Part shown: piece by piece, positions 35,251-59,199 of the stretch
How positions within the stretch are numbered: position 1 is the first letter of the stretch
Layout: every line of letters begins with the position of its first letter
Virus record (IMG/VR): IMGVR_UViG_3300024346_000020
From: a virus
Lineage: Duplodnaviria > Heunggongvirae > Uroviricota > Caudoviricetes
Length of the DNA: 64,000 nt
Direction: 5' to 3' (one strand)
Made by a program: the position numbers and the translations under genes
Notes under the pieces: generated by a model
What the model was told of the DNA's origin: nothing
Seen by the model: only the letters and a program-made list of their open reading frames with translations
Databases searched by the model: none

Positions 35251-35253
35251 TTT

Positions 35254-35736: not shown

Positions 35737-35754
35737 AAATCGGTCGTTTTTATT

Positions 35755-36843
35755 TTATCCTATAGTAAGAAAAATCTTACGACTTTGTCTATCTACTGAT
35801 AAAACTTTTACTTTGATGTCTTGTCCAGATACAAACTTTTTACCTAGTTTCTCCATTTCTGAAGTGTGAATTAGTCCAACTGTTTCAGAATCTAAGATTA
35901 CCAAAGTTCCAAATTGTTTCACATCTTTCACTCGACCATCAATAACTTGACCATTTTTGATGTTATCCCAAAGTGTTTCTCTTAGAACTTGAGTAAGAAT
36001 AATCTTCTCTTTGATGATTTCTTTTACATAGAATTCAATCTCTTGTCCTGGTTTAATTTCGGAGATTCTGTTTTGCCAATCTTCTGTAACATTAGCTTTG
36101 TGTATCATACCAGTTAAGCACTCATTGAACTCAACAAAGATACCGAATGGTGTTGTTCCAGTTACTCTACCACCATATAAGGTGTTAAACTCAAGATTAC
36201 CAATTTCTTGAGGAATCAATGTTTGTAGATACTTTCTACGACTTACGATATAGGTTCCTTCATGTTCTGAGAAAGACTCAATCATTACTTGGAACGTATC
36301 ACCAACGATTGAAGTTGGATCATAAAGTTTGTTGATACCGGCTAAGGTATTTGGCATAAATCCAGGAAGAGTTACTCCTCCATTTGTGATTTCAACATCG
36401 TAACCAGCTGGGTTAAGTGATCTTACATAAGCAGTTACTGATTCTCCTTCCTCTAAAGATTTAAGGTTTTCGTGAGCTCTTGACTCATATAGTGAAGCAA
36501 TGCTTCCTTTGATGAAATATTGACCTTGATTTATCTCGGTAATTAAAACATCAACCTCATCTCCAGTGTTGCAATTTTTAAGGTACTTAGCCTCGTTTGG
36601 TTTGTCTTCAACTCTGACATCATCTTTGAATCCGTCAACACTGAATACAAACTGATTAGCCATAATACCTCGGTAGTTTGATCTAACTACATTACCTACT
36701 TGTGGTATTTCTAATTTAATAGAGTTATAAAGAGAATCTAAGTCTTTATCACTCATATTCTTACCCTTTCTGTAACTTTTTTCTTCAAATAAAAGCTCAA
36801 AGTCTGGGTTTCCTACTTCTGGGTTTAAAATTTCGTTTGTCAT
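35755..36843 (-). CDS. S1 RNA-binding-domain repeat protein (truncated ribosomal protein S1-like, about 4 S1 domains)
   Basis: Repeated S1 OB-fold signatures (GQVIDGRVKDVKQFGTLVILDSETVGLIHTSEM, GRVTGTTPFGIFVEFNECLTGMIHKANV, GDTFQVMIESFSEHEGTYIVSRR). 362 aa. Confidence 0.65.
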   Translation of the reverse strand: MTNEILNPEVGNPDFELLFEEKSYRKGKNMSDKDLDSLYNSIKLEIPQVGNVVRSNYRGIMANQFVFSVDGFKDDVRVEDKPNEAKYLKNCNTGDEVDVLITEINQGQYFIKGSIASLYESRAHENLKSLEEGESVTAYVRSLNPAGYDVEITNGGVTLPGFMPNTLAGINKLYDPTSIVGDTFQVMIESFSEHEGTYIVSRRKYLQTLIPQEIGNLEFNTLYGGRVTGTTPFGIFVEFNECLTGMIHKANVTEDWQNRISEIKPGQEIEFYVKEIIKEKIILTQVLRETLWDNIKNGQVIDGRVKDVKQFGTLVILDSETVGLIHTSEMEKLGKKFVSGQDIKVKVLSVDRQSRKIFLTIG

Positions 36844-48681: not shown

Positions 48682-49173
48682 ATGACATTAAAAGAAATTA
48701 GAGAGTTTATGTTTAGTCATTTAGGTACACCTGTGTATGATGGTAGTGATTATTATGACGACGATGGTCATTGTGGAGACACATTATATGACGAAATCGT
48801 AGAGTTTTGGAAAGATTTCAATAAAGATGAAGATTTTTACTATCTTGTATTTGGAACTTTTGAAGGTGATTTAGACTTACATGGTGGTAGATCTTATTTA
48901 CTACCAGAAGAAGAACTCGCTCCTATGTGCTTTGAATATCTTGTAAGTAAAGGATTCACTGCAGATAGATTTAGTAAACTAATTTACAATGGTAATGAAT
49001 TAAATGAGCTTATTGAAGAATTATTTGAAAGTAAATCGTATATTAGAGATATTAAAATAAATGAAGTTCTTAAAGAAGAAACTACTCCTATAAACATTTG
49101 GTCGAGTTATAACTTTGAAACTCCAGAAAAACATACGTTCATAGATTGGATAAGAAAATTAAATAAAGTGTAA
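48682..49173 (+). CDS. hypothetical acidic protein
   Basis: ORF only. Confidence 0.4.
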   Translation: MTLKEIREFMFSHLGTPVYDGSDYYDDDGHCGDTLYDEIVEFWKDFNKDEDFYYLVFGTFEGDLDLHGGRSYLLPEEELAPMCFEYLVSKGFTADRFSKLIYNGNELNELIEELFESKSYIRDIKINEVLKEETTPINIWSSYNFETPEKHTFIDWIRKLNKV

Positions 49174-49244
49174 GGAAATAACAACTTTTTAATATATATA
49201 TAATATAATATTATTACGGCAATTAGAATAAATAACAAGCATAC

Positions 49245-49280
49245 AATCAATCAAATCAATCAAAAGCAATTGACGGCATG
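49245..49280 (+). promoter_or_regulatory. CAATCAA direct repeats and a GCAATTGACGGC element upstream of the sigma-factor gene
   Basis: acaatcaatcaaatcaatcaaaagcaattgacggcatg, about 30 nt upstream of the ATG at 49307; candidate operator or promoter. Confidence 0.25.
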
Positions 49281-49306
49281 TCAAAAAGAAAAATGAAAAG
49301 CAATCT

Positions 49307-49909
49307 ATGGAATTAAGTAAAGTCCCATTCTCTGAACAAGAGAAAATTTTTAAAGAAAGAACTGGTAAAGACTTCGCAACACTTTATCAAAAGTACTACC
49401 CAAAACTAATCTACTTTACATCAAGAATTTGTAATGATGTACAAAAAGCAGAAGACATTTCAACAGACTCATTTATGATAGCTCTGGAAAAAATAGAAAT
49501 GTATCAAAAAGAAAAATCACAATTCTCAACGTGGTTATTCACAATTGCAAAAAACTTATCTTTACAAGATAAAAAACTGGTAAACAGAAACATATCACTA
49601 GACATTGAGTTTGATGATGAAGGTACTACCTTAAAAGATTTCTTACAAGAAACTGAAAGTAATGAAGCCATCTATGATGTTTTCACACAGAAAGCAGATG
49701 TAATGAAGAAACATATCGACGAATTAAAAGAGCCGTATAAAACAGTTATTATAATGAGAGAGATAGAAAGAATGCAATATAAAGATATAGCAGATACCTT
49801 AGGAAAGAATTTATCTACAATAAAATCTCAAATTAGAAATGGTCGTCAAATTTTAATGGAACAGTCTAAAAAAGAGTTTGAACAGATAGATGAAATGTAC
49901 TTAGACTAA
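49307..49909 (+). CDS. sigma-70-family (ECF-like) RNA polymerase sigma factor
   Basis: Region 2-like ...DISTDSFMIALEKIEMY...FSTWLFTIAKN. Region 4 HTH TVIIMREIERMQYKDIADTLGKNLSTIKSQIRNGRQIL. Confidence 0.75.
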   Translation: MELSKVPFSEQEKIFKERTGKDFATLYQKYYPKLIYFTSRICNDVQKAEDISTDSFMIALEKIEMYQKEKSQFSTWLFTIAKNLSLQDKKLVNRNISLDIEFDDEGTTLKDFLQETESNEAIYDVFTQKADVMKKHIDELKEPYKTVIIMREIERMQYKDIADTLGKNLSTIKSQIRNGRQILMEQSKKEFEQIDEMYLD

Positions 49910-49954
49910 AGTAAAATGAATTTTTTTTAAATTAAATACTAAAATAGAAAAGTA

Positions 49955-51208
49955 ATGAACGTAGAACAGTTGGCAAAGAATGCGATTGAGAAAATAAAAT
50001 CAAATTGGGGTTTACCTAAAAGAGGGTTTATCGCAGGTGGTTCTATTGCAAATATTATATGGGAAGAAGTTTCTGGAACAAAAGCAATCATCAATGACAT
50101 CGATGTTTTTTTGTTTGATGGTCTTTTAGAAAATTATAACGAAGATAAAAAAGAATACTATTTTTCATTTAAAGAAGATGAACAAAATGTTTGGTATGAT
50201 GATTACGCGGGTCTAAGATTTATTGATAGAGCTAAAAACTATTACTCTATTTGTGAATCAACTACTGATGGTATATTCAACTACGTTAGTTACAAGTCAA
50301 ATACTCATAATCCAGAGATTATTATCAAATCATTTGATATAAACTGTACTGCGGTTGGTTATTCGATCGAAGAAGATAAGTTTTATTGGACACCAGAGTT
50401 TGAGAAGTTCTTAAAAACTGGTGAGTTGAAAATATCTAATTTGAAAACACCTTGTCATACTGCAATTCGGATTGTAAAGAAATCAGAAGAACTTGATGTT
50501 AAGTTAGATTTATTTGAATTAGAGATTGTTCAAGGTGTCTTATCACGTCAACTACAAGATGTTTATAAAGTTAGATTTCAAGATAGGTATTTCAACCTAT
50601 TTAATAATCATAAAATACTTGAAAACTATTTTACAATAGAAAAAGATTTAGATTGTATGACACACGTCAAAACAACATATGACAAAGATGTAAATCTATG
50701 GACTTTAAAAACTAAGAAAGAATCTGTTTGGTCAGGTGATAATAATCTTCTTGCAATTCACAAAGGTGAAGATTTCTTATTTTATTTAAGAAACATTTAT
50801 ACTAAACCAGAATTGATAGATGTATGGAATAAGTTAAGACCATTATTTATAAATGAAGATTATGTAGATGGTGGTGTTGATGTAGAAGATATGAAATTAT
50901 TATCAAGTACAATTCAATTTCTACCAAAAACAATTCTTAATCTAAGAGGTTATAAACTAACTGAACAAGTTTCAATAGTTAAATCATTATTAGAAAGATA
51001 TAAAGAAGATCCCGCAATTGCTTTTTCGGTATTGGAAAAACATACGATTGAACCAAATCAAGAGATTGATGATTCAACTGCACTTCTTTATGAACTTTCA
51101 GTAAGAAAAGAAATTGTTGATGAAAGACATAATTCTATGGTCGAAAGTATATTATCTAAGGTAGAATATAATGATAGTGATGCATGTTATGCAACTTGTG
51201 TGGATTAA
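49955..51208 (+). CDS. hypothetical protein with an N-terminal nucleotidyltransferase-like motif
   Basis: GFIAGGSIANIIWEEVSGTKAIINDIDVFLF (GGS ... DIDV), compatible with a Pol-beta NTase or CCA-adding-enzyme-type head; weak. Confidence 0.3.
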   Translation: MNVEQLAKNAIEKIKSNWGLPKRGFIAGGSIANIIWEEVSGTKAIINDIDVFLFDGLLENYNEDKKEYYFSFKEDEQNVWYDDYAGLRFIDRAKNYYSICESTTDGIFNYVSYKSNTHNPEIIIKSFDINCTAVGYSIEEDKFYWTPEFEKFLKTGELKISNLKTPCHTAIRIVKKSEELDVKLDLFELEIVQGVLSRQLQDVYKVRFQDRYFNLFNNHKILENYFTIEKDLDCMTHVKTTYDKDVNLWTLKTKKESVWSGDNNLLAIHKGEDFLFYLRNIYTKPELIDVWNKLRPLFINEDYVDGGVDVEDMKLLSSTIQFLPKTILNLRGYKLTEQVSIVKSLLERYKEDPAIAFSVLEKHTIEPNQEIDDSTALLYELSVRKEIVDERHNSMVESILSKVEYNDSDACYATCVD

Positions 51209-51253
51209 ACTTTTCAATAAAATATAATATAAATAAAAACTAAATATAAAACT

Positions 51254-51574
51254 ATGGGATTTATAACAGAATTAAATGAAACAAACTATAACGGATTTGT
51301 AGAAAGTGGAGTGGCTTTAGTAGACATATATGCGATTTGGTGCGGTCCGTGCAAACAAATTGCACCTATTGTAGATCAATTTTCAATTGATTTTCAAGGA
51401 AGAGTAGCAGTAGGTAAATTAGACGCATCTCCAAATGGAGATAAAGTAGCTGAGTTAGGTATCAGAAACATTCCTACAATCTTGATTTATAAAGATGGAG
51501 AAATTGTAGATAAAAGTGTTGGTATGACAACTAAAGAAAAATTGTCTGAACTTGTTGAGCAATACTTAAACTAA
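51254..51574 (+). CDS. trxA: thioredoxin
   Basis: WCGPCK active site, 106 aa, canonical spacing (VDIYAIWCGPCKQIAP...IPTILIYKDGE). Confidence 0.85.
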   Translation: MGFITELNETNYNGFVESGVALVDIYAIWCGPCKQIAPIVDQFSIDFQGRVAVGKLDASPNGDKVAELGIRNIPTILIYKDGEIVDKSVGMTTKEKLSELVEQYLN

Positions 51575-52149
51575 TGGAAGAAATAGATTATTTATATGAT
51601 CTAATTAGTAAAACTGAGACAACCTTAATTGGTTATCGATTTTCAGATGAAAGAATTAAAGATGAAATTATTTCTAATCTTGGAAAAACCAAGACAATAG
51701 ATTTAAGTTCATCTTTTTCTATGAAGTCGATCCTTAGAGATATAAAAATTGATCAAGTTTTAAATGAAGAAGAAAAAATTGATTATCTACTATTAGATAT
51801 AAATGATATAAGAAATTCTTATATTGAACAAAGAAACTTTACTAATGAAGATATAAGTCGAGCAGGTATAATAAAAAATATTATTTACGATGTAAGAGAT
51901 TGTTTAAGAGATAGTAGAAATGGTAAAGATATTAGTGATATTAAATTGATACTTACTTGTCCACTACAATCTAATGGTTTAAATAGAGATGGTAATATGA
52001 TTGATGCTTTTATGGGTGGTTCGACACCTTTATATTATGCAGATTTAGCAATGATTATAACTCAACAAAGTAATGATAAGATAATACAAGTCATTAAGAA
52101 CAGAGAATCAGATTCTCACAAAATTATAAAATATGATAGCATTAAATAG
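51574..52149 (+). CDS. hypothetical protein
   Basis: ORF; ATG overlaps the upstream TAA. Confidence 0.4.
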   Translation: MEEIDYLYDLISKTETTLIGYRFSDERIKDEIISNLGKTKTIDLSSSFSMKSILRDIKIDQVLNEEEKIDYLLLDINDIRNSYIEQRNFTNEDISRAGIIKNIIYDVRDCLRDSRNGKDISDIKLILTCPLQSNGLNRDGNMIDAFMGGSTPLYYADLAMIITQQSNDKIIQVIKNRESDSHKIIKYDSIK

Positions 52150-52564
52150 AAGAGCTCGTTACGAATATACTTTTATAGAGGAATTTGACTGCGGGATAAT
52201 ATTGGTTGGTAGTGAGGTAAAATCCGTTAGAATGGGTAATGTTACTTTAATAGATGCATTTATTTTTATAAAAGATAATGAGGTTTGGATAAAAAACTTA
52301 AAGATTGCTGCTTATAAATCAGCACATACTTTAGACATACACGAAGAAAATCGTGATAAGAAACTTCTTTTAAATAAAAAAGAGATTACTCGAATCAAAC
52401 GAAAATTGGAAGACAAAGGTATAACCGCGATTCCACTTGGTATGTTTGTTAAGAATAATAGAATTAAAATCAAAATAGCAGTTGCTAAGGGGAAGAAAAC
52501 TTGGGATAAAAGAGCTTCAATTAAGGAGAGAGACCTTACCAGAGAGATGCAAAGAAATATATAA
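52133..52564 (+). CDS. smpB: SsrA-binding protein SmpB
   Basis: NRRARYEYTFIEEFDCGIILVGSEVKS...LLLNKKEI...IKIKIAVAKGKKTWDKRASIKERD matches the SmpB family along its full length (143 aa). Confidence 0.85.
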   Translation: MIALNRRARYEYTFIEEFDCGIILVGSEVKSVRMGNVTLIDAFIFIKDNEVWIKNLKIAAYKSAHTLDIHEENRDKKLLLNKKEITRIKRKLEDKGITAIPLGMFVKNNRIKIKIAVAKGKKTWDKRASIKERDLTREMQRNI

Positions 52565-52567
52565 TGT

Positions 52568-52921
52568 ATGAAATTGACCTTATTAGAATATCTCGATAAG
52601 CTACATCTTTCAACTACTGAGGAGCAAGCCATTGATACACTCAAAAAACTTATGAAGAACTTTAGTTCTAATAATTATAAAAGTGTTATTATGACTAATC
52701 CATATTTTAAATCATTAGCACTTGATTTAAAAGAAGAGGTGAGTAAAGAAATGAATTTAATGAGAAATTTAATAACTGTTGAAATTGATAATCTTAATTC
52801 ACAATTAAATAAAACTAAAAATACAGCAGACTTTTTAAAATTAAAGGATCTAAGAAGAGAGTGTGTTCATCTTTTAACAGATTTAGAAGCCAGACAACAT
52901 GACTTATACCTACTATCTTAA
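52568..52921 (+). CDS. hypothetical coiled-coil protein
   Basis: ORF only. Confidence 0.4.
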   Translation: MKLTLLEYLDKLHLSTTEEQAIDTLKKLMKNFSSNNYKSVIMTNPYFKSLALDLKEEVSKEMNLMRNLITVEIDNLNSQLNKTKNTADFLKLKDLRRECVHLLTDLEARQHDLYLLS

Positions 52922-54586
52922 AAGGTCTTTAAATACTTTTTCAAGTTTATCTAATCTTTTAACATCACTATTATACTCTTCTTCACTATATCTTAATCTA
53001 CTCATAATTAGTTTTAATGATGAAGTATCAGCATCTAAGTTTATAAGAATATTTTTAGTATTTCTAGAAAGTATAAAAATATCATCTTGTACTAATTCAT
53101 ACAATGATGCTAGTCTAACTTGTATTGATTTAAGATCTTCAATAGTTTCTATATTTCTATTTTTAATTGAATTTGATAAAAGTTGACCTATATTAGTTAT
53201 TCTGTCAATTACATCAGACATTCTTTCTGCATTTTGATTATCAGTATCTTTAATAATTTTAATACTATAGGAGTAAGCAGTAGTTTGTTTTAAACGTCTT
53301 TTCTTAATAGTTTTAAACAATTCATATGTTTTCTCAAAGTTATATGAGTTATCACTTTCTGACATCAATCTATACAAAAATGTAATAAAGTCTGATAATC
53401 TATCAATATAAGAACTACTATTATAAAGAGCAATTATAAAATAATCTCCAATAATTGATGATAAAACAACTGAGTTGAGATTTTTAAATTCTTGTTTATC
53501 TTTTTCAATTCCTAATTTTGTAAATAAAGTAGTTAAATACCTTTCAACATTTTCTTTTCTAATATCATCTGGTTTCCTTAAAGCGAGAGCATCCTTTTTA
53601 ACAGACTTTCTTCTTTTTATAATATCAGATGTAGTATCATCAACATTTTTAATGATTATATCATCAAGAAAAAGAACGATTGCGAAGTTTGCTTCTTTAT
53701 TTACTTTATTAAAAATTGAAGTTTTTCTCTGATTCCATTCTTCCAAAGTAGTTCCATCTAATGGTAAATTGAAATCCCAAACAGATTCTTCTGTTTTATT
53801 CATTTTATCCAAATCTTCATCCTTAAATCTTAATGGATTTTCATCAAGTATTACTTTATGTAACATAAGATGATCATCATTCTCACTTTCTGGACTTCCT
53901 AATGACCAAGCATATTGATAAGCTGCATTACCTGCATATAGATTATATCTGTCTGGTAACACGATATTATTTCTAGTTGAACCAGGATCTGATCCTTCAT
54001 GTTCATTTTGATAAAAGTAATATTGAAGTTCATCATCATTTCTTCTATTATCAGCATATATTTCACCAAAAGTTAAATAAGAAGGATCTCCATTGAAATC
54101 ATCACCACAAACCATTACTACTTTATCACCTGTTACTAAATCTCCTAATCTCGCTGGAGTAATAACACCACCTATTCTATATTCTCTAGCTAGGTAAGCC
54201 AAATGTGATTGATCTAAACCTTCGCCATTACTCATCATAGAACCATTATAAGAATTATACTTGTTATAATCCATAGTTTTATTTCCAGATCCAGTACTAC
54301 ATAAATAACCTTTTTCTAATGAAAACCAATATTTAATACAGTAAGTACCAGATGGATTCATTGCTTCTTCACCTTTACCAACAACTAAAGCTTTATTTAC
54401 CGGTAAGTATTGTATTTCTTTATCGCTTAATGTACTTAGTGGGAAATCAAATTTATCAGCAAGTTTTTTTAATACTTTTAAAAACTCTCTTGTTGGATTA
54501 TCACTCTTTATCTTTTTATTTAGAAATGAAAGTATTGCACTAACTCTATCAGATTCAAACCCTTCGTATAATTTTAAGTATTTCAT
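52913..54586 (-). CDS. hypothetical 557-aa protein with a capsid-targeting-like N-terminus (MKYLKLYEGFE)
   Basis: Long ORF, convergent with the upstream plus-strand block; N-terminal motif shared with other ORFs. Confidence 0.55.
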   Translation of the reverse strand: MKYLKLYEGFESDRVSAILSFLNKKIKSDNPTREFLKVLKKLADKFDFPLSTLSDKEIQYLPVNKALVVGKGEEAMNPSGTYCIKYWFSLEKGYLCSTGSGNKTMDYNKYNSYNGSMMSNGEGLDQSHLAYLAREYRIGGVITPARLGDLVTGDKVVMVCGDDFNGDPSYLTFGEIYADNRRNDDELQYYFYQNEHEGSDPGSTRNNIVLPDRYNLYAGNAAYQYAWSLGSPESENDDHLMLHKVILDENPLRFKDEDLDKMNKTEESVWDFNLPLDGTTLEEWNQRKTSIFNKVNKEANFAIVLFLDDIIIKNVDDTTSDIIKRRKSVKKDALALRKPDDIRKENVERYLTTLFTKLGIEKDKQEFKNLNSVVLSSIIGDYFIIALYNSSSYIDRLSDFITFLYRLMSESDNSYNFEKTYELFKTIKKRRLKQTTAYSYSIKIIKDTDNQNAERMSDVIDRITNIGQLLSNSIKNRNIETIEDLKSIQVRLASLYELVQDDIFILSRNTKNILINLDADTSSLKLIMSRLRYSEEEYNSDVKRLDKLEKVFKDLLR

Positions 54587-54842
54587 AAACTATATATTAA
54601 AATATATTTTTTAAATTGAAACTTTATTGTATATTTGCATAATAAATAATGAGCTACTACAACTGACCTGTTAGAGAATAAGTTTTGGTCACATAGTTAT
54701 AGTTAGTGTTTATGGTAGTAATTAGCTGGGAAATACGTTTTCTTATACACTTTTAATAAAAACAGTGAACTACCTCGATATTAAATATAAAATATGAAAA
54801 TAAAAGTGTATTTTTTTTTAGAAATTATTAAAAATAAATATT

Positions 54843-55247
54843 ATGAATTTAAAAGAACAAATTAGCAAAGACTACATGACCGCTTTCAAAGAAAGAAATG
54901 TCGTAGCAAAGAACTTACTTTCTGTAGTGAAAGGAGAGATCCAAACTATTGAAAAAAATACAGGAGTAGATTGTCTTTCTGATGTAGAGGTAATTAAAAT
55001 TCTTAATAAAACTGCAAAATCTCTTAAAGAAGTTATCGAAATTTCTGGAGACGCTGAATCTATAACTCAATTAGAAATGGTTGAATCTTTACTTCCAGCT
55101 GCTATGACAAGAGAAGATGTTGTTGTAAAAGTTAGTGCACTTGTTGCATCAGGTATTACCAATGTTGGTGGAATTATGAAAGAGTTTGCTACTTTACAAG
55201 TGGATAGAAAAGTTGTATCAGAAGTTATTAAAGAAGTATTAGCATAA
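54843..55247 (+). CDS. yqeY: GatB/YqeY-domain protein
   Basis: MNLKEQISKDYMTAFKERNVVAKNLLSVVKGEIQ...TREDVVVKV... matches the YqeY family. Confidence 0.7.
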   Translation: MNLKEQISKDYMTAFKERNVVAKNLLSVVKGEIQTIEKNTGVDCLSDVEVIKILNKTAKSLKEVIEISGDAESITQLEMVESLLPAAMTREDVVVKVSALVASGITNVGGIMKEFATLQVDRKVVSEVIKEVLA

Positions 55248-56503
55248 TGAAAAATATAGTAGAAGAATTAAAATGGCGTGGGTTGGTACACGATATAATA
55301 CCAGGAACGGAGGATCAACTTTTAAAAGAAGCCACCACCTCTTATATTGGTTTTGATCCAACGTCAGATTCTCTACATATCGGTAGTTTAGTTCCAATCA
55401 TTCTTTTAAAACACATGAAGAATTTTGGACACAATCCTATCGCACTTGTTGGAGGTGCCACTGGTATGATCGGTGACCCCTCTGGTAAGTCAAATGAGAG
55501 AAATCTATTAGACGAAGAAGAACTTAATAAAAATGTTGAAGGTATTAAAAATACTCTTGAAAGATTTTTAGGTGATACTCCTGTGGTAAATAACTACGAT
55601 TGGATGTCAAAGTTTAGTTTCATAGACTTTGTAAGAGACATCGGTAAAAGAATTACTGTAAATTACATGTTATCTAAACAATCTGTAAAAAATCGTATAG
55701 AAGGTGAGGGAATGTCTTTCACTGAATTTACATACCAGTTGATTCAAGGATACGATTTCTACCATCTAAACAAAGAACATAACTGTTTATTACAAATGGG
55801 TGGTTCAGATCAATGGGGTAACATTACAACAGGAACTGAACTAATTCATAAAATGAATCCTGGTAGGGAAGCATTTGCTATGACATGCCCTTTACTAACT
55901 AAATCGGATGGTTCTAAGTTCGGAAAATCTGAAGGAGGTACAAATATATGGTTAGATAAAGATAAGACCTCTGTGTACAAGTTTTACCAATTTTGGATAA
56001 ATACTGATGATAATGATGCAGAGAAATACATTAAAATCTTTACATTTTTAGATAAAGAAACTATTGATAATTTAATAGAAGAACATAATAAAGCAAAGAA
56101 CTTATTTTTGTTACAAAAAACATTAGCAAGAGAAATAACTATTATGGTTCACGGTCAGCAAGAGTTTGAAAAGGCAGTAGAAGCTTCTAACATTTTATTT
56201 AATGGTGGAGATTTAAACTTACTTGATGAAGAATTATTTCTAGATATATTTAATGGAATACCACAAGCGAAAGTTCCTATGGAAGACATTCTTTCTGGTA
56301 TTACAATGACAGACATTCTATTTAAAACAGGTTTCTTAAAATCAAATAATGAAGCTAGAAGAGCTTTAAAAGAAAATTCAGTTGCAATAAATAAAATAAA
56401 AAGAGAAGAGGATTATATCGTAACAGATGTTGATTTGATAAATGATAAGTTTATCATACTACAAAGAGGTAAGAAAAGTTACTTCTTAGTTGAAGCATCA
56501 TAG
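55247..56503 (+). CDS. tyrS: tyrosyl-tRNA synthetase
   Basis: HIGH motif (LHIGSL), KMSKS motif (KFGKS), a TyrRS catalytic core (GGSDQWGNI) and a C-terminal S4-like domain. TAG stop. Confidence 0.85.
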   Translation: MKNIVEELKWRGLVHDIIPGTEDQLLKEATTSYIGFDPTSDSLHIGSLVPIILLKHMKNFGHNPIALVGGATGMIGDPSGKSNERNLLDEEELNKNVEGIKNTLERFLGDTPVVNNYDWMSKFSFIDFVRDIGKRITVNYMLSKQSVKNRIEGEGMSFTEFTYQLIQGYDFYHLNKEHNCLLQMGGSDQWGNITTGTELIHKMNPGREAFAMTCPLLTKSDGSKFGKSEGGTNIWLDKDKTSVYKFYQFWINTDDNDAEKYIKIFTFLDKETIDNLIEEHNKAKNLFLLQKTLAREITIMVHGQQEFEKAVEASNILFNGGDLNLLDEELFLDIFNGIPQAKVPMEDILSGITMTDILFKTGFLKSNNEARRALKENSVAINKIKREEDYIVTDVDLINDKFIILQRGKKSYFLVEAS

Positions 56504-56682
56504 TTTTCACTTACATAAGTTTGAAAACTTTTAACTTTGGTTGGTAACCCACTGGCTTTAACGTCTTGGGTCCAATCTTCGTTAAATACCCACTTCATAT
56601 GTTTGGGTGCATTCTTTTCAGTTTTATATTTACGACGCATCGCAAAAATGTACTTTAATTGCTGTTTTGAAGAAGCTGGCAT
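56479..56682 (-). CDS. small basic hypothetical protein (67 aa), convergent and overlapping the tyrS 3' end
   Basis: ORF only; could be a shadow ORF. Confidence 0.25.
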   Translation of the reverse strand: MPASSKQQLKYIFAMRRKYKTEKNAPKHMKWVFNEDWTQDVKASGLPTKVKSFQTYVSENYDASTKK

Positions 56683-56727
56683 TTTTAAAGATTTTTTCTT
56701 TTATATATAAAAAACATAAAATACAAT

Positions 56728-56994
56728 ATGGAAATGACTAAAATTAGTAAGGAGGAAAAACTAGTTCGCGACATTCATAGACAATTGTTTAAAGAAACAA
56801 TGCCTATTGCGAATTATGATGAACTCATTAAAGATGAAAAAACAAACTTTAAAAGTTATATTATATCAATGTGGACTTACCACACTATTGTAGAAGAAAA
56901 CTTAACTGGTAAAAAACTAACACCTTTAAAAAAAGCAGTTATTCGTAATATGCTTAACTCAAGCGAAACTTTACCTGACATTAAAAGACTTTAA
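56728..56994 (+). CDS. hypothetical protein
   Basis: ORF only. Confidence 0.4.
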   Translation: MEMTKISKEEKLVRDIHRQLFKETMPIANYDELIKDEKTNFKSYIISMWTYHTIVEENLTGKKLTPLKKAVIRNMLNSSETLPDIKRL

Positions 56995-57008
56995 AAAATA
57001 AAAATAAA

Positions 57009-57326
57009 ATGAAATTCATAAATCCCTTCAGAAGTAAGAAAAAAATAGATAAAGAGTCAATACTAAAGTTAGTAGATAAGGATACGGTATATGTAAATTA
57101 TATAAATAAAAATGGTGATGAAGAAGGATGTTTATTTAATGAATGGTCTTTAAGTAAAAGAGGAACTAATAAATTAAGTGATATTACTAGATATTATTTA
57201 TATGATGGTTCTGATTTGAAGTATATAATAAGAATTAAATCTAATATATTAGTATGTTGTGTTGATGAAGTCAAACTAGTAATAGATAATGAATTTATTC
57301 AACAAATCACAGATAAATTACTTTAA
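57009..57326 (+). CDS. hypothetical protein
   Basis: ORF only. Confidence 0.4.
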   Translation: MKFINPFRSKKKIDKESILKLVDKDTVYVNYINKNGDEEGCLFNEWSLSKRGTNKLSDITRYYLYDGSDLKYIIRIKSNILVCCVDEVKLVIDNEFIQQITDKLL

Positions 57327-57579
57327 TATGGTTTTAAAAATATTCTGTATAGTAGAACCAGACATTTCCTATACAAGAAACAAAGCATTAGTTGTAAATG
57401 AAACTTATTATGGTGTATATACCGAAGCCACACTAGGTGACTATGGTATTTGTCCTATATATGATGTTTATGATGAAAGAAAAAACAAGCTTGGTCAATA
57501 CTATGCTAGAGACTTTATAACTTTAGAAGAGTATAGAGATAGAAAACTTGAAGAAATTTTAGGTTTAAGTTTGGTATAA
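57289..57579 (+). CDS. hypothetical protein
   Basis: ORF; overlaps the upstream gene. Confidence 0.35.
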   Translation: MNLFNKSQINYFNMVLKIFCIVEPDISYTRNKALVVNETYYGVYTEATLGDYGICPIYDVYDERKNKLGQYYARDFITLEEYRDRKLEEILGLSLV

Positions 57580-57624
57580 TCAAATTAAGTTATATCTTTG
57601 TAATCTAAATAAGAAGAATGAGTA

Positions 57625-57861
57625 ATGACTTCTAAAAATAAAAGTAAACTAACATTAGTTACAGGTATAACAGCAATATTTATGATGTTTGTATTACCAT
57701 TCTTTTTACCTAATAGTATTTGTAATAATAAAACATATACTTTGATTTACTTTATAGTGTTCCTTAGCTTAGTTGGATGGTCTAACTATACTAATGAAAA
57801 GATAGATAAAATGTCTGTAGAAGAGAAGAGAGAAGAGAAATTAAAAGAAATACTAAAATAA
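57625..57861 (+). CDS. small membrane protein (two predicted TM helices)
   Basis: LVTGITAIFMMFVLPFFLP and LIYFIVFLSLVGW hydrophobic segments. Confidence 0.4.
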   Translation: MTSKNKSKLTLVTGITAIFMMFVLPFFLPNSICNNKTYTLIYFIVFLSLVGWSNYTNEKIDKMSVEEKREEKLKEILK

Positions 57862-58093
57862 ATTAGGTAGATAAGTAAACTTTTATTACTTTTGTACTAT
57901 AAAAATAACAAAAAAAACAAAAAGAGAGAATAAACTTTTAATATATAATAACAATGAGAACAAATTCAATACATACAAGCTTTAGTAAGTCGTTCAAGTG
58001 GTTTAGCCACAAGTTCGGATGTATGAGTATGTCGTTCTCAAAAGAAGATGTTATTGTAGGATAATGTCATAAAAGAGAATAAAACATAAACGT

Positions 58094-58127
58094 AAACCCG
58101 AACTTATAAAAAAGTTCGGGTTTTTTT
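58094..58127 (+). terminator. rho-independent terminator preceding the tRNA array
   Basis: aaaCCCGAACttataaaaaaGTTCGGGttttttt. Confidence 0.75.
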
Positions 58128-58136
58128 ATTTTATAA

Positions 58137-58222
58137 TCCCTCTTAGCTCAGTTGGTTTGCATTATGCTTAGAGCAATCGTCTTTTAAACGATGGGTCACA
58201 GGTTCGAATCCTGTAGGGGGAA
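58137..58222 (+). tRNA. tRNA-Lys (anticodon TTT) with an abnormally long D-loop (about 21 nt, extra GCAttaTGC mini-hairpin)
   Basis: Acceptor TCCCTCT/AGGGGGA; D-stem GCTC/GAGC; anticodon arm ATCGT-CTTTTAA-ACGAT; T-arm ACAGG-TTCGAAT-CCTGT; hand-folded. Confidence 0.55.
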
Positions 58223-58225
58223 CAA

Positions 58226-58723
58226 GACTTTTAATATATAAATAAAATTAAAAGTCAATTATGGAAAAATATTGTGGTACATGTAAAGAAGTTAAAAATA
58301 AAACTGAATTCAATAAAAATAAAGGTAGAAAAGATGGTTTAAACTCTATATGTAGAGTTTGTAGTAGGACTAATTCATATAATTATTATAAGGATAATAA
58401 GGAAATAATGAAGCCTATGATAAATGATAGTAAAAGGAAAAGAAAAATTGAAAGAATTAGATATATCTATCACTATTTTATGAAAAATCCTTGTATCGAT
58501 TGTGGGGAAACTAATCCGATAGTATTAGAATTCGATCATAGAGATAATGTTGAAAAGATAGATAATCTATGTGATATGATTAGTGAAGGTGCTGGTCTAG
58601 ATAAAATTAAAAATGAAATAGAAAAATGTGATGTTAGATGTGCGAATTGTCACCGAATAAGAACATCCATACAACAAAATTGGACTATGTTACAATTTAT
58701 ACAATAAAAAAGATTATTAAAAT
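58226..58723 (+). mobile_element. putative freestanding HNH homing-endonuclease insertion within the tRNA array
   Basis: HNH ORF at 58261..58707 sits between tRNA-Lys and the next tRNA; inference from phage precedent. Confidence 0.3.
58261..58707 (+). CDS. HNH endonuclease
   Basis: N-terminal CxxC...CxxC zinc finger (CGTCKEV...CRVCS) and an HNH core (LEFDHRDNVEKIDN...CANCHRIRT). Confidence 0.75.
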   Translation: MEKYCGTCKEVKNKTEFNKNKGRKDGLNSICRVCSRTNSYNYYKDNKEIMKPMINDSKRKRKIERIRYIYHYFMKNPCIDCGETNPIVLEFDHRDNVEKIDNLCDMISEGAGLDKIKNEIEKCDVRCANCHRIRTSIQQNWTMLQFIQ

Positions 58724-58796
58724 ACAGGTCAGCATAATGGTATGCACCAGGTCTCCAAAACCTCGGATGGAAAGAGTTCGACTCTCTTGGCTTGTG
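58724..58796 (+). tRNA. probable tRNA, anticodon CCA (Trp), atypical D-region
   Basis: T-arm AAGAG-TTCGACT-CTCTT; acceptor ACAGGTC/GGCTTGT with two G-U pairs; anticodon arm (C)AGGT-CTCCAAA-ACCT(C); needs software confirmation. Confidence 0.35.
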
Positions 58797-58806
58797 CAAA
58801 TATAAT

Positions 58807-58879
58807 GGACCTTTCGTATAGCTGGTGCGTACGTTGGACTGAAAATCCAAAGGACAGGGCTCGATTCCCTGAGGGTCCA
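58807..58879 (+). tRNA. tRNA-Phe (GAA)
   Basis: Acceptor GGACCTT/AGGGTCC; D-loop with GG; anticodon arm TTGGA-CTGAAAA-TCCAA; T-arm CAGGG-CTCGATT-CCCTG. Confidence 0.6.
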
Positions 58880-58891
58880 CTTTGATGGTAG

Positions 58892-58954
58892 CTTAATGGT
58901 TAAAGCACTTGGTTGTGAACCAAGGGATTGCGGGTTCGAGTCCCGTCTGTCAAC
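58892..58954 (+). tRNA. tRNA with anticodon GTG (His-type) but no G-1; canonical 73-nt fold
   Basis: Acceptor TTGATGG/CTGTCAA; D GCTT-AATGGTTA-AAGC; anticodon arm CTTGG-TTGTGAA-CCAAG; T-arm GCGGG-TTCGAGT-CCCGT; discriminator C. Confidence 0.5.
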
Positions 58955-58961
58955 CCAAAAT

Positions 58962-59034
58962 GGTGATTGTCGTCCAAAGGTCAGGATGCCTCCCTGTGAA
59001 GGAGGAGATGTGGTTTCGAGATCCATCATTCACC
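58962..59034 (+). tRNA. tRNA-His (GTG) with G-1:C73
   Basis: G at -1; acceptor GTGATTG/CATTCAC (one U-U); anticodon arm CCTCC-CTGTGAA-GGAGG; T-arm GTGGT-TTCGAGA-TCCAT; 3' ...C-CA encoded. Confidence 0.5.
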
Positions 59035-59041
59035 CAAATTC

Positions 59042-59115
59042 TCTCCCGTAGCTTAAATGGAGAAAGCCGCATACTTTTAATATGCAGACTACCGGATCGT
59101 ACCCGGTCGGGGGAA
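59042..59115 (+). tRNA. tRNA-Lys (TTT), second copy, with an unusual T-loop ATCGTAC (A54/T58 swapped)
   Basis: Acceptor TCTCCCG/CGGGGGA; D GCTT-AAATGGAGA-AAGC; anticodon arm GCATA-CTTTTAA-TATGC; T-arm ACCGG-ATCGTAC-CCGGT. Confidence 0.45.
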
Positions 59116-59123
59116 CAAAAATT

Positions 59124-59195
59124 GCGGATTTAGCTGAGACGGTTTAGCGTATGGTTGAAGCCCATAAGAGGTCAATTCGATTTTGACAATCCGCA
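59124..59195 (+). tRNA. tRNA-Phe (GAA), second copy (G37)
   Basis: Perfect acceptor GCGGATT/AATCCGC; D GCTG-AGACGGTT-TAGC; anticodon arm TATGG-TTGAAGC-CCATA; T-arm GTCAA-TTCGATT-TTGAC. Confidence 0.6.
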
Positions 59196-59199
59196 CAAA

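What the first reader, a model, noticed from the sequence alone, without database searches (positions are those of the whole stretch)
49307..56503. Dense set of translation and host-takeover genes (sigma factor, thioredoxin, SmpB, YqeY, TyrRS) next to a tRNA array in a phage-like context
smpB, tyrS, a GatB/YqeY-domain gene, trxA and a sigma-70-family factor all sit within about 7 kb. Upstream is an S1-domain repeat protein (35755-36843) and downstream about 13 tRNAs, embedded among giant virion proteins. SmpB is the obligate partner of tmRNA. A virus-encoded SmpB implies either a phage tmRNA elsewhere in the genome or hijacking of the host tmRNA for ribosome rescue during infection. This gene set is typical only of huge phages and is rarely characterised
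Basis: partly seen in the sequence, partly recalled or inferred. Interest (0 to 1): 0.75.

Follow-up and report, generated by a model that had tools for sequence, protein, structure and literature searches.

The report
Megaphage translation genes with tRNA-sensing attenuators
The genes are real and sit in a roughly 0.6-Mb "megaphage" genome, which is a known kind of thing, but the adjacent tRNA genes appear to be switched on by short leader peptides that sense shortage of the same tRNAs, a control I did not find described.

Summary
Window 49307-56503 encodes an ECF-type sigma factor, thioredoxin, full-length SmpB, YqeY and TyrRS. It also encodes a Gad2-like nucleotidyltransferase and three unknown proteins.

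The window is collinear with the curated 634,780-bp Mahaphage-clade genome LR745206.1, so this is a megaphage, not a bacterium. Such gene sets were already reported in huge phages (Al-Shayeb 2020).

- **SmpB:** it is old, vertically inherited in the clade and under strong purifying selection (dN/dS 0.05). No tmRNA was found in the window or anywhere in LR745206.1, so use of the host tmRNA is the likelier reading.
- **TyrRS:** it is about 70% identical to Flavobacteriaceae TyrRS. It fills a variable slot after yqeY that holds a non-discriminating AspRS in LR745206.1 and is empty in other relatives.
- **New finding:** each tRNA sub-array is preceded by a short ORF plus a strong terminator. This applies to window 57954-58130 and 59374-59511.
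  - The ORF codons match the tRNAs downstream: His/Phe/Lys/Trp in the first, Ser/Arg in the second.
  - An ORF segment pairs with the terminator's 5' arm and covaries with it.
  - The same design precedes seven tRNA arrays and about six aaRS genes in LR745206.1, and arrays in other IMG/VR megaphage contigs.

I read these as leader-peptide attenuators that supply tRNA on demand. This is inferred from sequence, not shown experimentally.

The parts
35755..36843 (-). Multi-S1-domain RNA-binding protein (362 aa)
   Evidence: NCBIfam hits to ribosomal protein S1 models at 1e-28 to 1e-33, all below the equivalog cutoffs. 66% identical orthologue in LR745206.1.
49307..49909 (+). ECF-type sigma-70 family factor (regions 2 and 4 only)
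   Evidence: Pfam PF04542 and PF08281. TIGR02937 at 66.6 bits, above the 42.9 cutoff; best subfamily is Sig70_bacteroi1. dN/dS 0.07. 77% identical in LR745206.1.
49955..51208 (+). 417-aa polymerase-beta-type nucleotidyltransferase, Gad2-like (candidate anti-Gabija protein)
   Evidence: Precomputed Pfam PF26128 Gad2 on identical proteins. Only a weak NTP_transf_6 match in my Pfam copy. No PDB or BLAST match to Bacillus phage Gad2. Family described in 10.1101/2023.05.01.538930.
51254..51574 (+). Thioredoxin (CGPC active site)
   Evidence: PF00085 at 3.8e-24. TIGR01068 at 91 bits, just below its 96.8 cutoff.
51574..52149 (+). Conserved unknown 191-aa protein; its 3' end overlaps the smpB start by 17 nt
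   Evidence: No Pfam, NCBIfam or PHROG match. Syntenic orthologues at 30-41% identity in all relatives.
52133..52564 (+). SmpB, full length including the C-terminal tail
   Evidence: PF01668 at 2.7e-51; NF003843 at 176 bits and TIGR00086 at 165 bits, both above cutoff. Aligns end to end with Aquifex SmpB 1p6v, including the GKKxxDKR tail. The tail is conserved across 124 phage homologues. dN/dS 0.05.
52568..52921 (+). Conserved unknown 117-aa protein directly after smpB
   Evidence: No family match. Syntenic in relatives.
52913..54586 (-). Conserved unknown 557-aa protein on the opposite strand
   Evidence: No family match. 28-31% identical syntenic orthologues.
54843..55247 (+). YqeY / GatB-C-terminal-like protein; its stop overlaps the tyrS start by 1 nt
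   Evidence: PF09424 at 2e-9. PHROG 1460 at 1.8e-16. Conserved in all relatives, whatever follows it.
55247..56503 (+). Tyrosyl-tRNA synthetase, bacterial type with S4-like C-terminal domain
   Evidence: TIGR00234 at 389 bits. 69-70% identical to Tenacibaculum and Flavobacterium TyrRS. Absent from LR745206.1. dN/dS 0.05-0.08.
57954..58064 (+). Leader ORF 1: MRTNSIHTSFSKSFKWFSHKFGCMSMSFSKEDVIVG (His, Phe, Lys and Trp codons)
   Evidence: Conserved as an ORF in more than 13 lineages. Codons 19-22 (AAGTTCGG) pair with the terminator 5' arm at dG -11.9; 0.3% of shuffles do as well. Covariation on alignment A2.
58094..58130 (+). Intrinsic terminator 1 (12-bp stem plus T-run)
   Evidence: scan_promoters_terminators. 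93% paired, with 7 of 9 pairs compensatory across 13 sequences.
58261..58707 (+). HNH homing-type endonuclease inserted between leader 1 and its tRNAs
   Evidence: PHROG 2255 at 4.7e-31. Absent at this position in relatives L109, L113 and LR745206.1.
58724..59196 (+). tRNA genes Trp(CCA), Phe(GAA), His(GUG), His(GUG), Lys(UUU), Phe(GAA)
   Evidence: ARAGORN and Rfam.
59200..59331 (+). tRNA(CAU)-like gene with an insertion of about 51 nt in the anticodon region
   Evidence: ARAGORN with the intron option. Sequence read directly: 7-bp acceptor stem, D arm and T arm are intact.
59374..59451 (+). Leader ORF 2: MKTIITTSSSSSSRSSNLREVLLCS (Ser codons TCG/TCA/TCT/AGT and Arg CGC)
   Evidence: The Ser/Arg run is conserved as amino acids, with switches between TCN and AGY codons. 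Its 3' part varies together with the terminator.
59472..59511 (+). Intrinsic terminator 2 (14-bp stem plus T-run)
   Evidence: The strongest terminator-like site in 49000-60200. dG -19.1.
59516..59966 (+). tRNA genes Arg(ACG), Ser(UGA) x2, Ser(GGA), Ser(GCU)
   Evidence: ARAGORN at default and at -ps90, and Rfam.

Best explanation
This is the translation-maintenance block of a roughly 0.6-Mb Mahaphage-clade megaphage. The host is probably a member of the Bacteroidota, possibly Flavobacteriia.

**Shown**
- The block order is sigma, Gad2-like nucleotidyltransferase, thioredoxin, p191, SmpB, p117, p557 (opposite strand), YqeY, then a tRNA array. It is conserved in every relative examined.
- The slot after yqeY varies: TyrRS here, non-discriminating AspRS in LR745206.1, and empty in others.
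- SmpB is intact and strongly constrained.
- No tmRNA is detectable in the window or in the closest complete genome.

**Inferred for SmpB.** It works with the host tmRNA to free ribosomes that stall during infection.

**Shown for the tRNA array.** It is divided into sub-operons. Each starts with a short ORF followed by a strong intrinsic terminator, and the tRNAs begin a few bases later. The ORF is enriched in codons read by those downstream tRNAs. A segment just 3' of these codons is complementary to the terminator's 5' arm and covaries with it.

**Inferred mechanism.** This is ribosome-mediated attenuation.
1. When the cognate charged tRNAs are scarce, the ribosome stalls on the regulatory codons.
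2. The antiterminator then forms before the terminator's 3' arm is transcribed.
3. RNA polymerase reads through into the tRNA genes.
4. When those tRNAs are plentiful, the ribosome runs over the antiterminator segment and transcription stops.

The same logic precedes the aaRS genes of LR745206.1. The phage would therefore adjust tRNA and synthetase supply to demand.
For: **Gene identities:**

**Megaphage context and synteny:**. Al-Shayeb 2020 (PMC7162821) places genomes above 634 kb in Mahaphage, with predicted Bacteroidetes hosts.

**Constraint:** dN/dS is 0.05 for SmpB, 0.05-0.08 for TyrRS and 0.07 for sigma. The SmpB tail is conserved.

**No tmRNA**
- Window.
- All of LR745206.1: ARAGORN and Rfam.
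- Zero hits in 1.15 Mb of phage loci, against 56 of 80 bacterial smpB loci as a positive control.

**TyrRS origin:** 69-70% identity to Flavobacteriaceae enzymes, and no homologue in LR745206.1.

**Attenuators**
- Leader, terminator and tRNA architecture in the window and in relatives.
- Seven tRNA leaders in LR745206.1 match their arrays. The true assignment ranks 1 of 5040. It ranks 1 of 362,880 for nine distinct leader-array pairs, which include L133 (YTTYQKQYQPKGGKPYGMTGY upstream of Pro, Gln, Lys, Tyr, Thr, Gly).
- Complementarity between ORF and terminator 5' arm beats dinucleotide shuffles in 8 of 9 leaders, at 0.3-3.3%.
- When the transcript is cut before the 3' arm, the 5' arm is sequestered with probability 0.5-0.9 only while the ribosome is at or before the cognate codons.
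- Covariation: the antiterminator core is 94.9% paired with 3 of 6 pairs compensatory; the terminator is 93% paired with 7 of 9 pairs compensatory.
- aaRS leaders match their enzymes (Val, Ile, Asn, Leu, Phe and Asp/Asn).
Against: - The window's own genome could not be read in full, so a phage tmRNA elsewhere is not excluded. A very divergent tmRNA could also escape both ARAGORN and Rfam.
- Nothing shows that SmpB binds the host tmRNA.
- All attenuator evidence is computational.
  - At equilibrium the full leader always folds into the terminator, so the switch has to be kinetic.
  - For leaders with long 3' tails (W1, G1, G5), the antiterminator segment is exposed again once the ribosome reaches the stop codon. 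Timing, or even polarity, is therefore uncertain.
  - For the window's leader 2, the antiterminator duplex is no better than shuffles (25%).
  - Several single-leader enrichments are modest (P 0.03-0.09).
  - Covariation in the antiterminator comes from few lineages.
- An HNH gene sits between leader 1 and its tRNAs in this window.
- No convincing leader was found for yqeY-tyrS itself.
Confidence: 0.72

Rival explanations
1. Ordinary bacterial housekeeping genes: the contig is a bacterial chromosome or a mis-binned fragment.
For: TyrRS is 69-70% identical to Flavobacteriaceae enzymes. SmpB, thioredoxin and sigma are universal bacterial genes.
Against: - Collinear over about 47 kb with a curated circular 634,780-bp phage genome.
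- Tail-fibre PHROGs at both ends of the window.
- No rRNA.
- No bacterial genome in the GTDB representatives carries an SmpB more than about 47% identical.
- Homing endonucleases and dense tRNA arrays are present.
Confidence: 0.02
2. The phage encodes its own tmRNA elsewhere in its genome, and SmpB is its dedicated partner.
For: Al-Shayeb 2020 reports tmRNAs in some huge phages. Only 64 kb of this genome was available.
Against: No tmRNA by ARAGORN or by any Rfam tmRNA family in the complete, syntenic LR745206.1, which has the orthologous SmpB. None in 1.15 Mb of related loci, while the bacterial positive control works.
Confidence: 0.13
3. SmpB is a decoy that sequesters host tmRNA to block trans-translation or tmRNA-dependent host responses, rather than a rescue factor.
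For: It is an orphan with no partner RNA. Phages are known to interact with the tmRNA system (Janssen and Hayes review, cited).
Against: The C-terminal tail acts inside the ribosome, and a mere RNA sponge would not need it. Yet the tail is retained and conserved across the clade. dN/dS of 0.05 over the whole length argues for the complete function.
Confidence: 0.1
4. The short ORFs in the tRNA array are fortuitous or encode small peptides. The terminators merely insulate tRNA sub-operons, with no sensing of tRNA.
For: AT-rich intergenic DNA produces many short ORFs. Equilibrium folding always gives the terminator. Some enrichments are weak.
Against: - The leader-array assignment is the single best of 362,880 permutations. 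For aaRS leaders it is the best of 5040.
- Cognate runs are conserved as amino acids, with synonymous and TCN/AGY switches.
- The 3' part of each ORF covaries with the terminator arm.
- A terminator placed directly upstream of the genes it precedes would otherwise silence them.
Confidence: 0.1

Closest known systems
Translation gene sets of huge phages (Al-Shayeb et al. 2020, Nature; Mahaphage clade, including Lak megaphages; LR745206.1 = Ig12092_scaffold_5)
   Same: Same clade and same gene order. SmpB, S1-domain protein, aaRS and large tRNA arrays are all reported there. The orthologous SmpB is annotated in the published GenBank file.
   Different: - This lineage is not in the phage collection at the nucleotide level.
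- It carries TyrRS where LR745206.1 carries AspRS-ND.
- The paper's main text has no 'leader peptide' hit (one search lists only one other paper), and my other literature searches found no description of the leaders.
- Whether the paper comments on a missing tmRNA in this subclade was not checked.
Bacterial SmpB-tmRNA trans-translation
   Same: Full-length SmpB fold and tail motif (GKK-x-aromatic-DKR-xx-IK-x-RD), aligned with 1p6v and 5zey.
   Different: No cognate ssrA was found in the phage. In bacteria, ssrA often lies next to smpB (56 of 80 control loci).
Leader-peptide transcription attenuators (E. coli trp, his, thr, leu, ilv and pheA leaders; the pheST leader for an aaRS)
   Same: Short ORF with a run of cognate codons, a downstream intrinsic terminator, and an alternative antiterminator that overlaps the terminator 5' arm. 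Multi-amino-acid leaders exist, as in thr and ilv. The aaRS leaders of LR745206.1 parallel pheST.
   Different: - The genes directly controlled are tRNA genes, not enzymes.
- The system is encoded by a virus.
- The leaders combine up to six or seven amino acids, mirroring the composition of the array.
- There is no Rfam match above threshold; the only hit is a weak His_leader match at E = 0.04.
T-box riboswitches
   Same: Functionally analogous: they sense tRNA charging and control aaRS and related genes through a choice between terminator and antiterminator.
   Different: T-boxes bind uncharged tRNA directly and need no translation. No T-box match was found here, and a translated ORF is conserved instead.
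Gad2 anti-Gabija nucleotidyltransferase (Yirmiya et al., bioRxiv 10.1101/2023.05.01.538930)
   Same: About 400 aa, phage-borne, with a predicted nucleotidyltransferase fold. Precomputed Pfam PF26128 hit.
   Different: No detectable BLAST similarity to Bacillus phage Gad2. Activity and target are untested, and the host is not known to carry Gabija.

Membership tests
SmpB (PF01668 / TIGR00086) | Full-length match above the curated cutoff | tested here: met
   TIGR00086 at 165 bits (cutoff 119.1); NF003843 at 176 bits (cutoff 130). Profile covered 1-140 of 143.
SmpB (PF01668 / TIGR00086) | Basic C-terminal tail needed for action in the ribosomal decoding centre | tested here: met
   The tail AKGKKTWDKRASIKERDLTREMQRN aligns with the Aquifex tail AKGKKLYDRRRELKEKAMKRELERE. 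It is conserved across 124 phage sequences.
SmpB (PF01668 / TIGR00086) | A cognate tmRNA (ssrA) in the same genome | tested here: not met
   None in the window. None in the complete syntenic relative LR745206.1. The positive control works. The window's own full genome was not available.
SmpB (PF01668 / TIGR00086) | Binds the tmRNA tRNA-like domain and supports trans-translation | not testable with these tools
   Requires biochemistry or genetic complementation.
Bacterial-type tyrosyl-tRNA synthetase (TIGR00234) | Class I catalytic core with HIGH and KMSKS motifs, plus the C-terminal S4-like tRNA-binding domain | tested here: met
   TIGR00234 at 389 bits (cutoff 113.8). PF00579 and PF22421 both match. 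HIGS and KFGKS are read in the translation.
Mahaphage / Lak-like megaphages | Collinear gene order and protein similarity with curated genomes of the clade | tested here: met
   33 of 57 window ORFs have syntenic matches in LR745206.1 at 290-337 kb. The same module is in LR756502.1. SmpB is 46-50% identical to Lak phage SmpB. No capsid or terminase phylogeny was done.
Leader-peptide (ribosome-mediated) transcription attenuator | Short translated ORF with a run of codons cognate to the regulated function | tested here: met
   W1 carries His, Phe, Lys and Trp codons; W2 carries Ser and Arg codons. Permutation tests give 1 of 5040 and 1 of 362,880. Conservation is at the amino-acid level with synonymous variation. 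Translation itself is not shown.
Leader-peptide (ribosome-mediated) transcription attenuator | Intrinsic terminator between the leader and the regulated genes | tested here: met
   Stems at 58094-58123 and 59472-59503, each followed by a T-run. Compensatory changes in 7 of 9 pairs.
Leader-peptide (ribosome-mediated) transcription attenuator | Mutually exclusive antiterminator whose formation depends on ribosome position | tested here: inconclusive
   Supported by duplex statistics in 8 of 9 leaders, by covariation and by ribosome-mask folding. It holds only in a kinetic model with a truncated transcript. Equilibrium folding favours the terminator, and W2 is weak.
Leader-peptide (ribosome-mediated) transcription attenuator | Read-through rises when the cognate charged tRNA is limiting | not testable with these tools
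   Needs reporter assays, in vitro coupled transcription-translation, or Term-seq.
Gad2 (PF26128) | Match to the family profile, and a nucleotidyltransferase active site | tested here: inconclusive
   Precomputed Pfam hit with E at or below 1e-5 on identical proteins. The model is absent from my Pfam copy, where only a weak NTP_transf_6 match at 5.9e-5 was seen. A GGS...DIDVF motif is read in the sequence. No structural test was run.
ECF (group 4) sigma factors | Only sigma regions 2 and 4 are present | tested here: met
   PF04542 and PF08281 only, in 200 aa. TIGR02937 is above its cutoff.

The most novel reading that the evidence does not exclude
Mahaphage-clade megaphages, including the published Lak phages, run a virus-encoded, demand-sensing translation-supply regulon.
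- Every tRNA sub-array and most aaRS genes sit behind leader-peptide attenuators whose codon content mirrors the product they gate.
- The phage would therefore top up exactly those tRNAs and synthetases that become limiting. Causes could be codon-usage mismatch, host shut-off, or host anticodon-nuclease defences.
- An orphan SmpB recruits the host tmRNA to clear the stalled ribosomes that such shortages create.

As far as my searches show, this would be the first case of tRNA genes controlled by ribosome-mediated attenuation, and the first such regulon in a virus.
Probability: 0.55. Interest if true: 0.85.

Novelty: new variant of a known kind. Interest (0 to 1): 0.7.

Why it matters
Why phages carry tRNA genes is a long-standing question. 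The proposed answers are codon-usage compensation, sustaining translation as the host decays, and evasion of tRNA-targeting defences.

If the leaders work as inferred, the genome itself states the rule: each tRNA set is made when ribosomes run short of exactly those charged tRNAs. The question then becomes directly testable with small reporter constructs and with existing metatranscriptomes.

The finding also extends a textbook bacterial mechanism to a virus and to RNA genes. It provides a sequence signature (leader composition equals array composition) that can be used to annotate megaphage genomes and to infer which tRNAs are co-transcribed.

Its added value is threefold:
- a host clue: the Flavobacteriia-like TyrRS, the Bacteroidota-type sigma factor and promoter boxes;
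- the evidence that SmpB is an orphan;
- the swappable aaRS slot next to yqeY.

Tried and rejected
- **Megablast of the 7.2-kb block against 50,697 phage records:** no match. Relatives are reachable only at the protein level.
- **Relaxed ARAGORN tmRNA search (-ps80):** gave only implausible permuted 'tmRNAs' overlapping tRNA genes and ORFs, 3 in the window and 44 in LR745206.1. Rejected as noise.
- **The 17-nt RF00023 hit at 59306-59322 (13 bits):** this is the T-loop of the tRNA-like gene. Its acceptor has G3:C70, not the G3:U70 alanine identity, so it is not tmRNA-like.
- **GTDB scan for the SmpB donor:** the back-translated patterns pulled in mainly Actinomycetota at 38-47% identity. This shows there is no close cellular donor but gives no phylogeny. 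No SmpB tree was built.
- **Supplement search of Al-Shayeb 2020 for tmRNA tables:** only 200 of 257 files were searchable, and none mention tmRNA.
- **Equilibrium folding of whole leaders with ribosome masks:** the terminator always wins. I replaced this with folding of the transcript truncated before the 3' arm.
- **A Tyr leader for yqeY-tyrS:** the mini-ORF MSYYN (54649-54666) reads MSCYN in a 95% relative and has no convincing terminator. My fold started 17 nt too far downstream of the mini-ORF, and it was not significantly structured. Not claimed.
- **The conserved ~170-nt element upstream of yqeY in relatives:** no Rfam match, and it is absent from the window.
- **Independent confirmation of Gad2:** BLAST and PDB sequence searches were negative.
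- **Not done:** structure prediction was not used. A whole Lak genome was not fetched for a tmRNA scan.

Full report
**1. The observation**

- ECF-type sigma factor: 49307-49909.
- Thioredoxin: 51254-51574.
- SmpB: 52133-52564. The match is full length and above the NCBIfam equivalog cutoffs.
- YqeY: 54843-55247.
- TyrRS: 55247-56503. TIGR00234 scores 389 bits, and the HIGS and KFGKS motifs are present.

The interval holds four further ORFs:
- A 417-aa nucleotidyltransferase (49955-51208). Precomputed Pfam annotation of identical metagenomic proteins calls it Gad2.
- Three conserved proteins with no family match: 51574-52149, 52568-52921 and 52913-54586 on the minus strand.

The S1-repeat protein at 35755-36843 is real.

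ARAGORN finds 9 tRNAs and Rfam adds 2. The count reaches 13 only at relaxed threshold.

Three of the four giant ORFs have no PHROG match, so calling them virion proteins is unverified.

**2. Context**

The block has no nucleotide match in 50,697 phage records. However, tblastn with SmpB hits the 634,780-bp uncultured phage LR745206.1 at 63% identity, LR756502.1 at 53% and the Lak Prevotella megaphages at 46-50%.

[quoted passage not shown] 2020. SmpB is already annotated in that record. That paper places genomes above 634 kb in the Mahaphage clade, with predicted Bacteroidetes hosts. It lists SmpB, tmRNAs, S1-domain proteins, aaRS and tRNAs among huge-phage genes.

I fetched all of LR745206.1. 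The window is collinear with its 290-337 kb region at 30-80% amino-acid identity.

The protein database holds more than 100 SmpB clusters 85-100% identical to the window's. They lie on contigs of up to 648,731 bp. Identical gene clusters occur on ENA and JGI contigs.

The window is therefore part of a megaphage genome. The bacterial-chromosome alternative is excluded.

**3. Anatomy and evolution of the block**

The order is ligase, sigma, nucleotidyltransferase, thioredoxin, p191, SmpB, p117, p557 (minus strand), YqeY, then a tRNA array. This order is conserved in the window's subclade, in four IMG/VR lineages at 59-66% SmpB identity, in LR745206.1 and in LR756502.1. Some variants carry insertions of GIY-YIG or HNH homing endonucleases.

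Against 88-96% identical relatives, dN/dS is 0.05 for SmpB, 0.05-0.08 for TyrRS and 0.07 for sigma. These are the lowest values in the block.

The slot after yqeY is variable:
- TyrRS in the window's subclade.
- A non-discriminating aspartate-tRNA(Asn) ligase in LR745206.1 (NF003483 at 474 bits, cutoff 353).
- Nothing in the others.

TyrRS has no homologue anywhere in LR745206.1. It is 69-70% identical to Tenacibaculum and Flavobacterium TyrRS. This points to a comparatively recent capture from a Flavobacteriia-like host.

By contrast, no GTDB representative genome recovered by the scan had an SmpB more than about 47% identical. SmpB identity across phage lineages falls in step with neighbouring genes. 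This fits old, vertical inheritance within the clade.

**4. SmpB and tmRNA**

The phage SmpB aligns end to end with solved SmpB structures, including the basic C-terminal tail. That tail is conserved across 124 phage homologues.

No tmRNA was found in the window:
- ARAGORN at default settings, Rfam at gathering thresholds, and Rfam with permissive filters over 49000-60200 all found none.
- The only RF00023 signal is a 17-nt T-loop match inside a tRNA-like gene.

No tmRNA was found in the whole of LR745206.1 either. ARAGORN reported 59 tRNAs and no tmRNA. Rfam over all 634,780 bp found tRNAs, a GOLLD RNA and a DUF805b motif, but no tmRNA family.

As a positive control, ARAGORN found a tmRNA within 3 kb of smpB in 56 of 80 bacterial loci, and none in 1.15 Mb of phage loci.

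I therefore favour an orphan SmpB that uses the host tmRNA. This is an inference. The conserved tail argues against a mere tmRNA-sequestering decoy. The window's own genome was not fully accessible, so a phage tmRNA elsewhere keeps some probability.

**5. What the tRNA array hides**

The 320-nt gap between tRNA-Phe (59196) and tRNA-Arg (59516) contains two features:
- A tRNA(CAU)-like gene with an insertion of about 51 nt (59200-59331).
- A 25-codon ORF at 59374-59451, MKTIITTSSSSSSRSSNLREVLLCS.

The strongest intrinsic terminator of the region follows the ORF (59472-59503 plus T-run). Five bases after the T-run come tRNA-Arg(ACG), Ser(UGA) twice, Ser(GGA) and Ser(GCU).

The ORF's codons are TCG, TCA, TCT, AGT and CGC. 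By standard wobble rules (my inference, not computed), these four downstream anticodon types should read them.

A second unit lies upstream:
- ORF 57954-58064, MRTNSIHTSFSKSFKWFSHKFGCMSMSFSKEDVIVG.
- Terminator 58094-58123.
- Then, after an inserted HNH gene, tRNA Trp, Phe, His, His, Lys, Phe.

Both units are conserved in every relative that has the module.

The cognate run is conserved as amino acids, with synonymous changes and TCN/AGY switches. The 3' part of each ORF changes together with the terminator.

**6. Generality**

In LR745206.1, seven tRNA sub-arrays are each preceded by such a unit:

| Leader motif | tRNAs downstream |
|---|---|
| HKNFSKSHKWF | His, Phe, Trp, Lys |
| SKSSSRSSS | Arg, Ser |
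| SYESYYEE | Glu, Tyr |
| ISIAVIGNGAGAI | Ile, Gly, Met |
| MNLNMTMNLTLNVVNITL | Asn, Arg, Leu, Val, Ile, Thr |
| PVNPQPQDQDP | Pro, Asp |
| QQIQQQQ | Gln |

The true leader-array assignment is the best of all 5040 permutations.

IMG/VR scans anchored on tRNA sequences recovered further megaphage contigs with differently composed arrays. Their leaders track the array composition:
- YTTYQKQYQPKGGKPYGMTGY precedes Pro, Gln, Lys, Tyr, Thr, Gly.
- QAVAGQGQAG precedes Val, Gly, Ala.

Over nine distinct leader-array pairs, the true assignment is the single best of 362,880.

Lak-A1 and Lak-B5 carry a conserved 37-codon leader plus terminator in front of their array.

A genome-wide scan of LR745206.1 also found cognate leaders in front of aaRS genes:
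- A Val-rich leader before a ValRS-like gene.
- An Ile-rich leader before IleRS.
- An Asn leader before AsnRS.
- A Leu leader before a LeuRS-like gene.
- A Phe-rich leader before a PheS-related ligase.
- An Asn/Asp leader before the AspRS-ND next to yqeY.

For these aaRS leaders the true assignment is the best of 5040.

**7. Mechanism**

In 8 of 9 tRNA leaders, a segment just 3' of the cognate codons is complementary to the terminator's 5' arm. The duplex energy is -9 to -13 kcal/mol, and only 0.3-3.3% of dinucleotide shuffles do as well. The window's leader 2 is the exception, at 25%.

This pairing covaries across lineages:
- AAGTTCGG pairs with CCGAACTT.
- AACTTGG pairs with CCAAGTT.
- TCGATTCGA pairs with TCGAATTGA.
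- In leader 2, GAGATTCGA pairs with TCGAATCT, while GAGGTTCGA pairs with TCGAACTT.

On a 13-sequence alignment:
- The antiterminator core is 94.9% paired, with 3 of 6 pairs compensatory. Between 1 and 5 of 500 shuffles reach the observed values.
- The terminator is 93% paired, with 7 of 9 pairs compensatory. None of 500 shuffles reaches the observed values.

At equilibrium the complete leader always folds into the terminator, as expected for a kinetic switch.

I then folded the transcript as it exists before the 3' arm is made, masking a ribosome footprint at each codon. The 5' arm is sequestered with probability 0.5-0.9 while the A site is at or before the cognate codons. It is released (0-0.4) once the ribosome passes them.

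The aaRS leaders show the three-state profile expected of an attenuator. The antiterminator forms only with the ribosome on the cognate codons, and not without a ribosome or with one at the stop codon.

I infer ribosome-mediated attenuation: shortage of the cognate charged tRNAs leads to a stall, then to read-through, then to more of those tRNAs or that synthetase.

Caveats:
- For leaders with long 3' tails, the antiterminator is re-exposed when the ribosome reaches the stop codon. Timing, or even polarity, needs experiment.
- The window's leader 2 duplex is statistically weak.
- All evidence is computational.

**8. Comparison with what is known**

The gene set belongs to a known kind (Al-Shayeb 2020). 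Leader-peptide attenuation is textbook for amino-acid operons and for pheST.

Six full-text searches found no report of leader-peptide attenuation of tRNA genes, or of such leaders in phages. The library is incomplete, so prior description cannot be excluded.

No Rfam family matches the leaders above threshold. The only signal is a weak His_leader hit at E = 0.04.

**9. Verdict**

Taken alone it is a new member of a known kind, of modest interest.

Following the adjacent tRNA array revealed a conserved, apparently undescribed regulatory layer. This raises the interest. I rate the whole as a new variant of a known kind.

Noticed in passing
LR745206.1 record 34378-35852 (-), 336524-336586, 381899-384254, 390375-391700, 404566-406099, 613818-615030 (-) (loci L002, L008, L009, L010, L014): aaRS genes of the related complete megaphage each carry a short upstream ORF enriched in the cognate amino acid, plus a terminator. 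Examples: MNFNTIIIIRYSIPWSIPIG before IleRS, MKTINLNNLVVVNVSV before a ValRS-like gene, and MNTNTTFNFFFSHKMV before a PheS-related ligase. Ribosome-position folding gives textbook attenuator profiles.
   Followed up: yes
L024 21251-21470 (Lak-B5) and L025 20859-21075 (Lak-A1): The published Lak Prevotella megaphages have a conserved 37-codon leader (M[KR]QFNNIYKNNVDIYADSFNWYEQ...) plus a terminator in front of tRNA-Trp and a 14-15-tRNA array. The attenuator design may therefore extend across the clade.
   Followed up: partly
L001 23614-24978 (LR745206.1 record 336580-337944): The slot after yqeY holds a non-discriminating aspartate-tRNA(Asn) ligase in LR745206.1. YqeY is a homologue of the GatB tail domain, so the pairing hints at a link with tRNA-dependent Asn formation, or at a general tRNA-binding helper role.
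   Followed up: partly
window 54649-54666: Mini-ORF MSYYN (two Tyr codons), just downstream of a Bacteroidota-like promoter box and upstream of yqeY-tyrS. It reads MSCYN in a 95% relative, and no convincing terminator follows. Possibly a degenerate Tyr leader; not claimed.
   Followed up: partly
L109 about 13740-13925; also L110, L112, L113, L001 and L023 upstream of yqeY: A conserved, structured-looking element of about 170 nt (…AGAATGGTAACAC…GGTTCTCGGATTCCGGCC…) lies upstream of yqeY in relatives but is absent from the window. No Rfam match even at E = 1.
   Followed up: partly
L010 22475-22880 (LR745206.1 about 420875-421280): A full-length GOLLD RNA (Rfam RF02032, 287 bits) sits among tRNA genes of the related megaphage.
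   Followed up: no
window 59200-59331; LR745206.1 343293-343558; L023 21065-21334: Unusual tRNA genes. The window has a tRNA(CAU)-like gene with an insertion of about 51 nt. The relatives have 84-89-nt tRNA-Lys genes, which have long extra arms or insertions.
   Followed up: no
window 5935, 8159, 26098, 33061, 49190, 57939, 58232, 59360: The motif TTTTAATATATA lies 5-8 nt upstream of the ATG of both leaders and of several protein genes. It could be a phage promoter giving near-leaderless mRNAs, or an initiation signal. A Bacteroidota-type -7 box (TAtaTTTG within ACTTTTATCTATATTTGTA) precedes leaders W1, G1, G5 and G6; a similar box (ACTTTATTGTATATTTGCA) precedes yqeY.
   Followed up: partly
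window 58261-58707; L019 8340-9083 and 2964-3638: Homing endonucleases are scattered through the block. An HNH gene lies between leader 1 and its tRNAs in the window. GIY-YIG and NUMOD genes lie between the nucleotidyltransferase and thioredoxin, and after the ligase, in a 95% relative.
   Followed up: partly
window 49955-51208: The 417-aa nucleotidyltransferase is labelled Gad2 (anti-Gabija) by precomputed Pfam. It is conserved next to the sigma factor in all relatives. I could not confirm the label independently.
   Followed up: partly
window 9374-11071, 11449-12156, 24897-25622, 27535-28644, 33075-33821, 45591-47426: Other cellular-type genes in the window: SbcC-like nuclease subunit, DnaJ, Sir2-family protein, M16 and M28 peptidases, and NAD-dependent DNA ligase.
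   Followed up: no
window 12683-17332, 19222-24816, 37993-42270: Three giant ORFs (1549, 1864 and 1425 aa) have no PHROG match. They are conserved at 34-52% identity in LR745206.1. Their function, and whether they are virion components, is unknown.
   Followed up: partly
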